Positions 12,406 to 16,016 of a stretch of DNA of 64,000 nt are shown here, in pieces. The position numbers and the translations under genes are program-made. The stretch is taken from positions 1,632,001 to 1,696,000 of the forward strand of contig JBKAGP010000001.1 in the NCBI GenBank assembly GCA_046290465.1, written 5' to 3'. A model generated the notes under the pieces. It did no database searches. It was given only the letters and a program-made list of their open reading frames with translations, and was not told where the DNA came from. How positions within the stretch are numbered: position 1 is the stretch's first letter; each line of letters opens with the position of its first letter. Origin of the DNA: Planctomycetota bacterium (GTDB lineage: Bacteria; Planctomycetota; UBA1135; UBA2386).

Positions 12406-12419
<14 letters not shown>
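10305..12419 (-). CDS. Exported GH42/beta-galactosidase-like protein with trimerisation (GATase-like) domain
   Basis: Signal peptide; ADE, CRCEHC..AFR..IDSLNGALGT.Y.SFD pattern; VVLPAMLSIP..YTEQGGTVVAD. Confidence 0.65.
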
Positions 12420-13759
<1,340 letters not shown>

Positions 13760-13767
<8 letters not shown>

Positions 13768-14434
13768 CGCGCCCCTCCCCGAAGCCGGCCTCATCACCGA
13801 ACCCGTCGTCGTCGTCGTCGAGATCGTCGAAGTCGTCGTCACCGAGCGGCAGCGCGTCGTCGTCCTGGCGCAGGCGGGTCTCGCCGAACGAGACCACCTG
13901 GTCGCCGCCGGCGCGCTGCGCGAACTCGAGCGCGGTCTCCGCCTGCGACAGCAAAGAGTCGAAGAACAGCGTGCCCTGGTCGTCGCACGCGGTCAGGCCG
14001 AGGCTGATCGACAGCATCAGTTCGCGACCGTCGACGGTGACGTCCATCTCGGAAAACACCTGGTGCAGGCGCTGCGCGACGACCCGGGTCTGGCCCAGAT
14101 CGGTGTGCGGCAGCACCAGCAGGTAGCGGTCGTCGTTGGTCGTGCCGAGCAGGTCCGAACCGCGGGTCTTCTCGCGCACCAGGCGGGCGATGCCCTGCTT
14201 GACGGCGGTGCGCAGCTGCGCGCCGTGCAGGTCGGCGAGCTGCGCGAGCCGGTCGACCTGCATCAGCACGACCCCCATCGGGATGCCGTGCCGGCGGGCG
14301 CGGGCGAACTCGTTCTTCATCAGGTGCAGGATCTGCGCCTGGGAGAACAGCGAACTGCTGAGGAAGCCGTCGCCTTCGACGGCTGGTGCGCGGCCCCCTC
14401 CCGGACGGCCTTTGCGGAAGCCTGGTCTCGTCAT
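13760..14434 (-). CDS. Degenerate GGDEF-domain protein with acidic tail
   Basis: EFARARRH..GVVLMQVDRL..RGSDLLGTTNDDRYLLVLP..SISLG..ALEFAQRAGGDQV; GG[D/E]EF replaced by NDDRY. Confidence 0.85.
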
Positions 14435-14512
14435 CGTGATGTCCGACGCAAGCTAGTGCCTGCACCGCCGCCAAGCTACGGAGCGGTGGCAGTACGCCGC
14501 CTGGCTCGGGGC

Positions 14513-14552
14513 AAAAAAATACGGGCCTCAGCCGGTCAGAACTGAGGCCCGT
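14513..14552 (-). terminator. Rho-independent terminator
   Basis: ACGGGCCTCAG-loop-CTGAGGCCCGT (11 bp) followed by A-T7 on the minus strand. Confidence 0.85.
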
Positions 14553-14805
14553 GAATGCGGGTCAGGCTACGCAATGGAGAGGGCGGTTAGGGAGGGGGGA
14601 TACTGGTCTCCACCACACAGCCACGACCCGACGGTGTCTGCTGGATCGAGATCGGGTCAGGATCTCGAAGCGCTCCCAATGGTCAGTCAGGAGCAAGCGA
14701 ACCAAACAGTCAGAGAGCATTTCGCTGCGGGAGTGCCACGAGTGGCGCTTCCGCCCGGTCCTCCTCGGATGCGACCAGGCTAGTCACTTCCGGCTCGGGC
14801 CAGGA
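14513..14805 (-). ncRNA. Candidate ~290-nt structured small RNA with repeated CUGAC loops and a C-rich loop
   Basis: Bounded by a promoter and a terminator; about 7 hairpins, G-U pairs favour the minus strand; no recognised RNA family. Confidence 0.65.
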
Positions 14806-14810
14806 GCGCG

Positions 14811-14839
14811 ATCATGCCCAGGTGTCCACTGGATTTCAA
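14811..14839 (-). promoter_or_regulatory. Putative sigma-70 promoter of the candidate sRNA
   Basis: TTGAAA (14839-14834)-N17-CATGAT (14816-14811). Confidence 0.55.
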
Positions 14840-15188
14840 CACCCACCCAACGCGTTTTTCGACACCGAGTATCAGGCTGGGACGGCCTTGCAGGCCTGTC
14901 GATCCTGGACATAACATTCTTGTGCGTAGCAACTTCCGCCTTGCCATCGGTTCCAGGGGCGCGCTCGGGCGGCGAACGCCGCCGACAACTTTCCGCCCAA
15001 AAAGCCAACACTCCACAATCTGCCAACGGCCCCACTATCTGCCAACGGTTAGGTCGGCCCAGCTCCGACGACGGCCCCGGAAAGTTGGGGCGTGCGCGGC
15101 ACGAGGCCAAGCGAAACCGCGGTTTCGAGGCCGCTGGCGGCGTTTGCGCCAGCCCGCTCCCGGGACGGTTGGCCGCCAGCGCGACGCG

Positions 15189-15650
15189 CTACTTGGCGCG
15201 AGGCTCGGCGCCGACCAGTTCGAGCGACTTGTCGAGCAGCCAGTCGATGTCCCACGCGGGGAACTTGTACTCGAGCAACAGCAGCCCGATCACGACCACG
15301 ATCGCGAAGATCACGCCGAAGATCAGCTGCGCGACCATGCGCGCGACGAAGCCCTTGGCGCGGTGCGTGACCGACGGCCCCTTCGCGACCCGCCCGCCAC
15401 GCAGGATCCAGTCGCGCTGCGCGGCGAGACCCTGCTGCACCAGGCGCTGGCCTTCGACCTCTTCCGACAGGATCGCCTGGGTGATCACCTGCCAGGGATA
15501 CTCCGCCTCGTTCTGCTGGGCGGTGATCTTCAGCTGCGCCATCTTTGGCTTGCTGACGGCGCCGGCCATCAGGCGCAGGCTCGCCTCGCTGACGGCCTTG
15601 AGGGCCTGATCGCCCTCGTTGAGGTCCGGTTGCTGCGGCGTTTCGGACAT
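15189..15650 (-). CDS. Hypothetical membrane protein
   Basis: 153 aa, GC3-rich codons, one C-terminal TM segment. Confidence 0.75.
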   Translation of the reverse strand: MSETPQQPDLNEGDQALKAVSEASLRLMAGAVSKPKMAQLKITAQQNEAEYPWQVITQAILSEEVEGQRLVQQGLAAQRDWILRGGRVAKGPSVTHRAKGFVARMVAQLIFGVIFAIVVVIGLLLLEYKFPAWDIDWLLDKSLELVGAEPRAK

Positions 15651-15704
15651 GGCGAGACTCGGCGCCCGCCGCAGGGGCGGGCAGCTATCCGGGGAGCAGC
15701 AGGG

Positions 15705-16016
15705 TTACTGCTTCTGGGCCTTCGTGAAGGCGCGGTTGCGGCCGCGGACCGCCTTGACCAGCGGGAACGAGACCGTCTTGTCGCCCTTCTGCAGGGTGAT
15801 GACGCCGCGCTTGATGACCTTGGTCGACAGCTTCAGCGTCATGACCGTGCCTTCCGGCGTCAGGATGCGGACCGGCTGCAGGTTCGGCTTGAACTTGCGC
15901 TTGCTGCGGCCCGTGACGCGACGACCGACACCGCCGTCCTTCTTGGCAAGACCGCGGCGCTTGACCTTGTTTCCAACTCGGGTGCGACGACCGGTGACTG
16001 CGCAGACTCTGGACAT
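15705..16016 (-). CDS. rpmB: 50S ribosomal protein bL28 (long form)
   Basis: MSRVCAVTG..GN..RRGLAKKDGGVG..KRKFKPNLQ. Confidence 0.96.
   Translation of the reverse strand: MSRVCAVTGRRTRVGNKVKRRGLAKKDGGVGRRVTGRSKRKFKPNLQPVRILTPEGTVMTLKLSTKVIKRGVITLQKGDKTVSFPLVKAVRGRNRAFTKAQKQ

What the first reader, a model, noticed from the sequence alone, without database searches (positions are those of the whole stretch)
14513..14839. Candidate novel sRNA: multi-hairpin transcript displaying CUGAC in four loops (protein-sponge architecture)
Seen: the minus strand has TTGAAA-N17-CATGAT, then ~290 nt of back-to-back hairpins, then an 11-bp terminator with a U7 tract. CTGAC occurs six times in ~180 nt. It sits in the loop of four hairpins: AGCGAA/UUCGCU (14696-14726), GCUCCUGA-CUGACCA-UUGGGAGC (14672-14694), UCGAGAUC-CUGACCC-GAUCUCGA (14646-14668) and the terminator loop UUCUGACCGG. 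G-U pairs in three stems favour the minus strand; one stem (14727-14754) favours plus. Established: repeated loop motifs on a promoter/terminator-bounded RNA define protein-titrating sRNAs such as CsrB/RsmZ (GGA loops). Inference: this RNA titrates a different, CUGAC-binding protein. It lies just upstream of the degenerate GGDEF / sigma-54 activator operon.
Basis: partly seen in the sequence, partly recalled or inferred. Interest (0 to 1): 0.85.

Follow-up and report, generated by a model that had tools for sequence, protein, structure and literature searches.

The report
New abundant planctomycete small RNA
This is a real, previously undescribed small RNA of about 290 bases from a group of Planctomycetota. 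It most likely controls the signalling genes next to it by base-pairing with their messenger RNA, rather than by soaking up a protein.

Summary
On the minus strand, 14839 to 14513, there is a sigma-70-type promoter, about 290 nt of hairpins and a strong intrinsic terminator. CTGAC occurs six times in 179 nt.

No Rfam family matches. The RNA is single-copy. It is conserved in 19 of 19 sampled genomes of its family and in several sister families. It almost always lies just upstream of a degenerate-GGDEF / sigma-54 response-regulator operon. Contigs of 217-237 nt lying wholly inside it occur in four public runs, three of them recorded as RNA.

The sponge reading is only partly supported:
- CUGACC is a conserved loop on two covarying hairpins within the family, plus one more in the genus.
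- It is lost in the more distant homologues.
- It is not enriched in hairpin loops elsewhere in the genome.

The deepest conserved element is a C-rich apical loop, CCCCUCCCUAACCGCCC.

Two loops are complementary to the first 41 nt of the neighbouring GGDEF-like coding sequence. The paired codons are rare ones kept across genera:
- AGA, 36 of 59 loci against 0.3% of Arg codons genome-wide.
- CCA, 41 of 59 against 2.7% of Pro codons.
- GGA-GGG.

Best reading: a new Hfq-independent base-pairing sRNA whose targets include the adjacent operon. The role of the CUGACC loops is unexplained.

The parts
14854..14864 (-). A-rich element TGTCGAAAAAC upstream of the -35; possibly an UP element
   Evidence: Conserved as TGTCGAAAA(T/A) in the genus alignment. 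Its function is inferred.
14811..14839 (-). Promoter: TTGAAA, 17 nt, CATGAT. Most relatives read TGnCATGAT, an extended -10
   Evidence: A TTGAAA-N15-19-(G)GCATnnT site was found upstream of the RNA in most loci.
14513..14805 (-). Predicted sRNA of about 292 nt. The 5' end is predicted, not mapped
   Evidence: Bounded by the promoter and terminator. Contigs of 217-237 nt from 4 runs lie within 14548-14793. 82-90% identical over its full length in 13 of 14 same-genus genomes.
14769..14789 (-). Hairpin H1 with conserved loop CUAGCCUGG (14775-14783)
   Evidence: 6 of 6 pairs show compensatory changes in 49 sequences. The loop is complementary to +8..+16 of the GGDEF-like mRNA.
14709..14726 (-). 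Conserved sequence AGCGAAAYGCUCUCUGA(C/A), which holds one CUGAC in this genus
14673..14693 (-). Hairpin H4 with invariant heptaloop CUGACCA (14680-14686)
   Evidence: 7 of 7 pairs show compensatory changes in 49 sequences.
14646..14668 (-). Variable hairpin. Loop CUGACCC in this genus, UUCG-type loops in other genera
14559..14629 (-). Long G-U-rich hairpin P1 carrying the 26-nt C-rich apical loop (14581-14606)
   Evidence: 15 to 20 pairs, 5 of them with double changes, 98.6% of cells paired in 77 sequences. G-U pairs at 4 positions fix the strand. The loop core is kept in sister families.
14513..14552 (-). Intrinsic terminator: 13-bp stem, hexaloop CUGACC (14534-14539), U7
   Evidence: CUGACC is present in 77 of 84 unique core sequences.
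14419..14427 (-). Candidate target site 1 in the GGDEF-like mRNA: GACCAGGCU, +8..+16, codons AGA-CCA-GGC
   Evidence: 9-nt complement of AGCCUGGUC, the H1 loop plus two stem bases. Rare codons: AGA in 36 of 59 loci, CCA in 41 of 59.
14394..14402 (-). Candidate target site 2: GGGAGGGGG, +33..+41, codons (CC)G-GGA-GGG-GG(C)
   Evidence: 9-nt complement of CCCCCUCCC in the apical loop. It is one of only 24 such 9-mers on both strands of the 6.59-Mb genome. Rare codons GGA and GGG.
13760..14434 (-). Degenerate GGDEF-domain gene: NDDRY in place of GGDEF, RGSD I-site motif kept
   Evidence: Pfam GGDEF E 2.6e-16. Sequence. Lies downstream of the RNA in 100 of 108 loci.
12406..13767 (-). NtrC/AtoC-like sigma-54-dependent response regulator. 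Its start overlaps the GGDEF-like stop (ATGGCTGA)

Best explanation
A new, abundant, single-copy regulatory sRNA of about 290 nt, found in one lineage of Planctomycetota. It is transcribed from its own strong sigma-70-type promoter and ended by an intrinsic terminator.

It most likely acts by RNA-RNA pairing through unpaired loops displayed on covarying hairpins, without Hfq. In this family two loops are proposed to pair with the 5' coding region of the adjacent mRNA, which encodes a degenerate-GGDEF protein and a sigma-54 response regulator:
- The H1 loop (AGCCUGGUC) with +8..+16, inside the region a starting ribosome covers.
- The C-rich apical loop (CCCCCUCCC) with +33..+41.

The expected result is lower translation and/or stability of that mRNA, giving a local control loop on a probable c-di-GMP-sensing sigma-54 module.

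The 22-nt C-rich loop is kept even where this site is not. It therefore probably has further G-rich targets or a partner not yet identified.

Shown here: the RNA's boundaries by sequence signals, its structure, its conservation, its synteny, the complementarity, and the rare-codon signature. Inferred: that pairing happens in the cell, its direction (repression), and whether it acts in trans.
For: A real RNA:
- Promoter and terminator.
- Fold z -3.8 on the minus strand.
- Structure counted on 77 sequences: 98.1% of cells paired against 92.9% in shuffles; 13 pairs with double changes against 5.0 (0 of 500 shuffles reach either); about 40% paired when partners are slid.
- Many G-U pairs fix the strand.
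- Indels, including 5 versus 6 C in the loop, exclude coding.
- One contig of 217-237 nt lying wholly within 14548-14793 in each of 4 runs, 3 of them recorded as RNA.

New: no Rfam hit at gathering score in the window. The best sub-threshold match is 20.1 bits against a cut-off of 39, on the terminator only.

Distribution:
- 29 of 151 sampled genomes of the class. By family: f1 19/19, f7 4/4, f6 1/1, f8 2/3.
- Single copy in its own genome.
- 88 genome records carry the exact 21-nt loop core, nearly all titled Planctomycetota.

No Hfq or CsrA was found in the 94%-complete genome.

Target:
- The GGDEF-like gene lies downstream in 100 of 108 loci.
- GGGAGGGGG occurs 24 times, and GGGAGGGG 82 times, on both strands of 6.59 Mb. 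One copy sits at +33..+41 of the gene 78 nt downstream of the terminator.
- Across 59 unique N-termini the paired codons are rare ones:
  - AGA 36 of 59 (0.3% of Arg genome-wide).
  - CCA 41 of 59 (2.7% of Pro).
  - GGA 25 of 36 Gly at codon 12 (3.0%).
  - GGG 35 of 49 Gly at codon 13 (10.2%).
  - The dicodon GGA-GGG is 35 of 11,231 Gly-Gly pairs.
- Unpaired neighbouring codons use common codons, for example CGC in 45 of 59 at codon 7.
- The start region (-40..+60) pairs with the C-loop better than 4 control windows of the same gene in 42 of 48 close loci (mean -20.9 against -10.9 kcal/mol) and in 12 of 32 distant loci.
- The H1 loop motif and the CCAGG site occur together: 28 both, 5 loop only, 6 site only, 8 neither; odds ratio 7.5, Fisher p 0.0098.
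Against: - Loci are related, so the counts and p-values overstate independence.
- The N-terminal peptide is rich in Gly and Arg, so some G-richness is expected. Rare A-ending codons near starts are also a general trend.
- With shuffled loops as control the signal is moderate: mean z -1.10, and 44 of 123 rows (duplicates not removed) below -1.64. It is about zero in distant homologues.
- Site 2 lies outside the window where pairing directly blocks ribosome binding.
- Loop and site are not strictly compensatory. Five loci keep the loop without the site and 6 the reverse.
- The invariant C-loop in lineages without the site is not explained by this target.
- The genome-wide target scans gave nothing specific.
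- Contigs give neither strand nor ends.
- Start codons in other loci were extrapolated from tblastn hits.
Confidence: 0.55

Rival explanations
1. Protein sponge. The RNA's main job is to titrate an unknown RNA-binding protein that recognises CUGACC in 6-7-nt hairpin loops.
For: - CUGACC(A) is invariant in two loops whose stems covary: H4 7 of 7 pairs, terminator 8 of 12 pairs.
- Extra copies sit in loops in this genus (14654-14660) and in L040/L097.
- CTGAC is about 35-fold enriched locally.
- The RNA appears abundant.
Against: - Only 2 copies are family-wide.
- The motif is missing from 7 of 84 unique cores and from the sister-family homologues shown as alignments, which keep the C-loop and the synteny.
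- CUGACC hairpin loops are not enriched in the genome: 112 of 6480, rank 24 of 120. No pool of competing mRNA sites is therefore visible.
- No CsrA or Hfq was found.
- No candidate binding protein was identified.
Confidence: 0.15
2. Cis-acting leader. The RNA is the 5' leader of the GGDEF-like/RR operon. Most transcripts stop at the terminator, and read-through transcripts are controlled by the same loop-to-coding-region pairing acting in cis.
For: - Strict same-strand adjacency in 100 of 108 loci, including distant families.
- Both complementary sites lie within 120 nt downstream of the terminator.
- A conserved promoter for the operon in the spacer is not established: the box CTAG(C/G)NT(G/T)C occurs in 36 of 93 spacers, and a two-box form in 7 of 93.
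Against: - The terminator is very strong (13 bp, U7-U9) and its sequence is conserved. I saw no alternative antiterminator pairing, but I did not search for one systematically.
- The four run contigs end within the RNA, which is a weak hint only.
- GGDEF-like genes exist without the RNA in families f10, f2 and f5: 12 loci, 0 hits with the model's filters off.
Confidence: 0.15
3. Component or decoy of conserved cell machinery. The invariant 22-nt C-rich loop, which resembles an anti-Shine-Dalgarno sequence, binds a conserved protein or the translation apparatus or Shine-Dalgarno sequences in general. The neighbouring mRNA would be incidental.
For: - The loop core is identical across families, while its stem covaries and the rest of the RNA is replaced.
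- Apparent high abundance in RNA libraries.
- GGAGG shows a Shine-Dalgarno-like excess 6-7 nt before candidate starts.
Against: - The invariance is partly built in, because 88 loci were found by the exact 21-mer. The covariance-model search did recover the same core independently.
- GGGAGGG is rare at Shine-Dalgarno spacing.
- This reading does not explain the rare-codon signature in the neighbour.
Confidence: 0.1

Closest known systems
6C/B11 sRNA of high-GC Gram-positive bacteria (PMC6486639; I saw only the search listing and the start of the abstract)
   Same: A high-GC organism. Unpaired C-rich loops on stable hairpins. By that paper's title, binding to several mRNAs through C-rich loops without RNA chaperones. 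Here no Hfq was found and the loop is complementary to a G-rich mRNA site.
   Different: - No sequence or structure match: Rfam scans gave no 6C hit.
- About three times longer.
- One 26-nt loop with a 22-nt invariant core rather than two short C-loops.
- Additional conserved loops (CUAGCCUGG, CUGACC).
- A different phylum.
CsrB/RsmY/RsmZ protein-sponge sRNAs
   Same: A promoter- and terminator-bounded multi-hairpin RNA with one short motif repeated in loops. The copy number varies between lineages.
   Different: - The motif is CUGACC, not GGA.
- Only 2 to 4 copies.
- No CsrA gene was found.
- No Rfam match.
- The motif is dispensable in distant homologues.
sRNAs encoded beside a sigma-54 response regulator that feed back on it: Qrr/LuxO in Vibrio, Pxr beside an NtrC-like regulator in Myxococcus, NrsZ beside ntrBC in Pseudomonas
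   Same: The sRNA gene is syntenic with an NtrC-family regulator gene. Pairing with the regulator's own mRNA is proposed, as recalled for Qrr and luxO.
   Different: - Those sRNAs have sigma-54 promoters, whereas this one has a sigma-70-type promoter.
- It lies upstream on the same strand.
- The only Rfam NrsZ match was a chance hit on the terminator (10.8 bits against a cut-off of 76.9).

Membership tests
CsrB/RsmZ-type sponge sRNAs | Many GGA/ANGGA motifs in hairpin loops | tested here: not met
   The repeated loop motif is CUGACC. The conserved loops are CUAGCCUGG, CUGACCA, the C-rich loop and CUGACC.
CsrB/RsmZ-type sponge sRNAs | A cognate CsrA/RsmA protein encoded in the genome | tested here: not met
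   PF02599 gave 0 matches in the organism's own 94%-complete genome. The control genomes did match.
CsrB/RsmZ-type sponge sRNAs | Match to an Rfam model of the family | tested here: not met
   No hit at gathering score in the window. None was listed at E up to 10 in 14300-15100.
6C (C-rich-loop sRNA) | Match to the Rfam 6C model | tested here: not met
6C (C-rich-loop sRNA) | Unpaired C-rich loop on a stable hairpin, complementary to G-rich mRNA sites | tested here: met
   for the structure. for the complementary site. This is a working likeness, not membership.
Independent trans-acting sRNA gene | Own promoter, intrinsic terminator, discrete transcript | tested here: inconclusive
   The promoter and terminator signals are present and conserved. 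Contigs of 217-237 nt lie inside the RNA in 4 runs, but contigs show neither ends nor strand.
Riboswitch / transcription-attenuating leader | Mutually exclusive terminator and antiterminator structures, and a ligand pocket formed by conserved junction nucleotides | not tested
   I saw no competing pairing, but I ran no systematic search. The conserved nucleotides lie in apical loops, not junctions.
6S RNA | Match to the Rfam 6S model; a rod-like helix with a central bubble | tested here: not met
   There is no 6S hit here. A weak one (27.9 bits, cut-off 46.4) lies elsewhere in the genome. The structure here is a chain of hairpins.

The most novel reading that the evidence does not exclude
A modular riboregulator of a kind not yet described, with two activities:
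- An invariant loop resembling an anti-Shine-Dalgarno sequence that engages a conserved G-rich partner, either many mRNAs or a piece of cell machinery.
- A lineage-specific 5' domain whose CUGACC hexaloops titrate an unknown RNA-binding protein. A speculative candidate is the neighbouring degenerate-GGDEF protein, through its Arg/Gly-rich tail.

Together these would wire c-di-GMP sensing and a sigma-54 regulator to global translation in Planctomycetota.
Probability: 0.12. Interest if true: 0.8.

Novelty: new member of a known kind. Interest (0 to 1): 0.6.

Why it matters
My three literature searches found no described regulatory sRNA in Planctomycetota (one search concerned 6C only).

This one offers:
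- Conservation across at least five families.
- A structure supported by covariation.
- A hint of high expression.
- A concrete target that can be tested by mutation, in a c-di-GMP / sigma-54 signalling module.

It could serve as an entry point to post-transcriptional control in a phylum that seems to lack Hfq and CsrA, at least in this genome. It also leaves two clear open problems: the invariant 22-nt C-rich loop and the CUGACC hexaloops.

Tried and rejected
Known RNA families and coding
- Rfam at gathering score and at E up to 10 gave nothing but chance matches to the terminator.
- tRNA/tmRNA scan: none.
- Small ORFs inside the RNA (52 aa on the minus strand, 69 aa on the plus strand) are rejected, because relatives differ by 1-2-nt indels and by 5 versus 6 C.

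Genome-wide target search
- Exact seeds: only 50 sites of 10 nt or more complementary to the loop, apart from the RNA's own gene.
- Duplex energies over 253 seed sites, and over the 5' regions of 3291 crudely called genes, gave only G-rich background. My gene caller missed the GGDEF-like gene itself. Inconclusive.
- GGGAGGG is rare at Shine-Dalgarno spacing.

Other candidate sites
- A second site at the response regulator's Shine-Dalgarno sequence (GGGGAGGGG, window 13779-13771) is present here but in only 2 of 31 loci. Not conserved.
- The variable 5' part of the apical loop does not pair better with its own locus's start region than loops from other lineages do (mean percentile 0.49 over 82 loci).
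- CUGACC in hairpin loops genome-wide: no enrichment.
- AUGGUCAG start sites as partners of CUGACCAU: 187 occurrences, uninformative.
- GUCAG in the upstream gene reads CGUCAG, not GGUCAG.

Context
- Two-box promoter motif in the spacer: both boxes in only 7 of 93 spacers.
- GGDEF-like genes of families f10, f2 and f5: no RNA upstream in 12 loci.
- Flanks 14300-14547 and 14794-15000 had no cover in the four runs.
- Earlier notes of this scan: one unrelated note nearby and none by sequence.

Full report
**What is there**

On the minus strand the window reads TTGAAA (14839-14834), 17 nt, CATGAT (14816-14811). About 290 nt of hairpins follow. They end in a 13-bp G+C-rich stem (14552-14521) followed by A and seven U.

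The consensus scan finds this as the only sigma-70-like site in 13500-16000 (0.1 expected), and also finds the terminator. The minus strand folds clearly better than its shuffles (z -3.82, 0 of 100 as good). The plus strand gives z -1.85.

CTGAC occurs six times on the minus strand between 14535 and 14713. The whole window holds 120 on both strands, so about 0.17 would be expected in that stretch.

**It is not a known RNA and not a gene for a protein**

Rfam gives no match at gathering score anywhere in the window. In E-value mode the best match is BjrC68 at 20.1 bits, against a cut-off of 39, and it covers only the terminator. ARAGORN finds nothing. The short ORFs that cross the region are broken in close relatives by 1-2-nt indels and by a 5-versus-6 C run.

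**Conservation and distribution**

- A DNA search of 41 related genomes found a match in 28 (this count includes the window's own genome). Among the 14 other genomes of the same genus, 13 matched over the full length at 82-90% identity. Other genera keep mainly the 3' 130 nt at 77-98%.
- An exact scan for the 21-nt loop core in one genome per species found 88 stretches. Nearly all are titled Planctomycetota, and one Phycisphaerales.
- I built a covariance model from 77 unique core sequences. It found the RNA in 29 of 151 sampled genomes of the class. By family: f1 19/19, f7 4/4, f6 1/1 and f8 2/3. In f10 (1/85) and f9 (1/32) there were only weak hits, and in f2 (0/4) and f5 (0/2) none.
- The organism's own genome holds one copy.

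**Structure**

*3' core.* On the 77-sequence core alignment, RNAalifold predicts a long hairpin (P1) and the terminator. Counted on that structure, 98.1% of cells pair, against 92.9% in shuffles. Thirteen pairs carry changes on both sides, against 5.0 in shuffles. None of 500 shuffles reaches either value. Sliding the partners drops pairing to about 40%. Four P1 positions are mostly G-U, and this fixes the transcribed strand.

I had left 7 of the 84 unique cores out of that alignment (L033, L052, L056, L060, L063, L084, L095), because they have other terminators.

*Full length in family f1.* Here I used 49 of the 53 unique sequences of 270-330 nt, leaving out L037, L040, L048 and L097, which aligned poorly. 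The consensus has:
- H1, with 6 of 6 pairs compensatory and loop CUAGCCUGG.
- A variable hairpin.
- H4, with 7 of 7 pairs compensatory and loop CUGACCA.
- P1, with a 26-nt loop.
- The terminator, with loop CUGACC.

- The hairpin at 14646-14668 carries CUGACCC only in this genus. Elsewhere it has UUCG-type loops.
- The AGCGAA/UUCGCU hairpin is not maintained: L011 and L013 break it.
- The CUGAC at 14561-14565 is the 3' strand of the P1 base. It changes together with its partner, for example GGGUUGA with UCGCCC.

**What is deepest**

The promoter lies about 240 nt upstream of the loop in most loci, and about 170 or about 107 nt upstream in more distant ones. The 5' domain is therefore a lineage-specific addition.

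Homologues in sister families were found by the model, not by the exact word. They keep CCCCUCCCUAACCGCCCU on a covarying stem, but have other terminators without CUGACC. In one, P1 itself is the terminator. The universal element is therefore the C-rich loop, and CUGACC is an innovation at the level of family f1.

**Expression**

Twenty-four public runs from 13 studies hold part of the stretch. I laid four of them, three recorded as RNA. Each has one contig of 217-237 nt lying entirely within 14548-14793 with no mismatch. Three share one inserted A after 14703.

Contigs show neither ends nor strand, so this is a hint of a discrete and abundant RNA, not proof.

**Context**

Downstream on the same strand lie two genes.
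- A 224-aa GGDEF-domain protein. NDDRY stands where GGDEF would be, and RGSD stands at the spacing of the RxxD inhibitory site. That placement rests on my recall of the PleD motif spacing, not on an alignment.
- An NtrC/AtoC-like sigma-54 response regulator. Its start overlaps the stop of the first gene.

tblastn finds the GGDEF-like gene downstream of the RNA in 100 of 108 loci, including distant ones. A conserved 153-aa protein lies upstream in 70. From its sequence I read it as having one membrane-spanning segment.

GGDEF-like genes of about 40% identity also exist in families where the RNA was not found. In 12 such loci the model found nothing with its filters off.

The genome has no detectable Hfq or CsrA.

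**Mechanism**

Two loops are complementary to the start of the GGDEF-like coding sequence.
- AGCCUGGUC (the H1 loop plus two stem bases) pairs with GACCAGGCU at +8..+16.
- CCCCCUCCC (in the apical loop) pairs with GGGAGGGGG at +33..+41.

That 9-mer occurs only 24 times on both strands of the 6.59-Mb genome.

The strongest evidence is codon choice. Genome-wide usage is:

| Codon | Share of its amino acid genome-wide |
|---|---|
| AGA | 0.3% of Arg |
| CCA | 2.7% of Pro |
| GGA | 3.0% of Gly |
| GGG | 10.2% of Gly |
| GGA-GGG dicodon | 35 of 11,231 Gly-Gly pairs |

I looked at 59 unique N-termini of the M-(T/S)-x-P-G-F-R type, out of 83 unique; 24 were dropped for not matching that pattern. In these:
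- Codon 3 is AGA in 36.
- Codon 4 is CCA in 41.
- Codon 12 is GGA in 25 of 36 Gly.
- Codon 13 is GGG in 35 of 49 Gly.
- The unpaired codons 7, 9 and 14 use the common CGC or GGC.

Three further tests:
- The start region pairs with the C-loop better than four control windows of the same gene in 42 of 48 close loci and in 12 of 32 distant ones. Twenty per cent would be expected by chance. An earlier unstratified run, using the full 27-nt loop, gave 52 of 74.
- The H1 motif and the CCAGG site go together: 28 both, 5 loop only, 6 site only, 8 neither (odds ratio 7.5, Fisher p 0.0098).
- The H1 loop is also complementary to GACCAG in the RNA's own apical loop, so an internal loop-loop contact that competes with the mRNA is possible. 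This is inference from the sequence.

**Caveats**

- The loci are kin, so these statistics overstate independence.
- The peptide is rich in Gly and Arg.
- With shuffled loops the z-score averages -1.10 and is about zero in distant homologues.
- Site 2 lies outside the ribosome's footprint.
- The pairing could act in cis on read-through transcripts. An independent operon promoter is not established: a CTAG(C/G)NT(G/T)C box occurs in 36 of 93 spacers, and a two-box form in 7.
- The invariance of the C-loop where the site is absent points to further partners. My genome-wide scans did not find them.

**The sponge reading**

CUGACC loops are real and conserved on two hairpins. However, only two copies are family-wide, distant homologues lack them, and CUGACC is not enriched in hairpin loops genome-wide (112 of 6480 occurrences, rank 24 of 120 permuted hexamers). 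I found no candidate binding protein. The reading remains possible as a second function.

**Comparison with known RNAs**

By working principle the closest known RNA is the 6C/B11 class of C-rich-loop, chaperone-independent sRNAs (PMC6486639; I saw the listing and the start of the abstract only). This RNA is not a member of that family, because Rfam gives no match.

My recall of Qrr-LuxO, Pxr and NrsZ gives precedents for sRNA genes beside sigma-54 regulators. Those were not checked here.

Searches for planctomycete sRNAs found nothing relevant. Supplements were not consulted.

**Verdict**

This is a genuine new sRNA family, a new member of a known kind. It has a specific, testable target and two unexplained conserved loop motifs.

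Noticed in passing
window 13760-14434 (-): The GGDEF-like protein has NDDRY in place of GGDEF but keeps an RxxD-type motif (RGSD) five residues upstream. This suggests a c-di-GMP receptor rather than a cyclase. It also has an Arg/Gly-rich basic N-terminus (MTRPGFRKGRPGGGR) and a strongly acidic C-terminal tail.
   Followed up: partly
window 13760-13767 (-): The stop of the GGDEF-like gene and the start of the sigma-54 response regulator overlap in ATGGCTGA, which suggests translational coupling. In this genome a GGGGAGGGG lies 4 nt upstream of that ATG and is also complementary to the C-loop, but only 2 of 31 loci have such a motif.
   Followed up: yes
window 14448-14460 (-): GGCACTAGCTTGC lies in the spacer before the GGDEF-like gene. 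It looks like a sigma-54 -24/-12 promoter with the spacing one base short. A related box occurs in 36 of 93 unique spacers. If it is functional, the operon that encodes a sigma-54 activator would itself depend on sigma-54.
   Followed up: partly
window 14548-14793; runs X1, X14, X16, X17: The same contig of about 235 nt, with no mismatch, turns up in RNA libraries labelled seawater, coral and other organisms from different studies. Either the organism is cosmopolitan, or its very abundant sRNA is a recurrent contaminant of RNA libraries.
   Followed up: no
window 15189-15650 (-): A conserved 153-aa protein with no Pfam or NCBIfam match lies between rpmB (L28) and the sRNA in 70 of 108 loci. 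From its sequence I read it as having one membrane-spanning segment.
   Followed up: partly
own genome C1:83211-83420 (+), outside the window (L138): A sub-threshold 6S RNA candidate (27.9 bits, cut-off 46.4). It is probably this lineage's divergent 6S RNA.
   Followed up: no
window 14581-14606, both strands: The apical loop has four C-tracts (C6, C3, C2, C3), so the template DNA strand carries matching G-tracts. I did not examine whether these could form unusual C-rich RNA or G-rich DNA structures.
   Followed up: no
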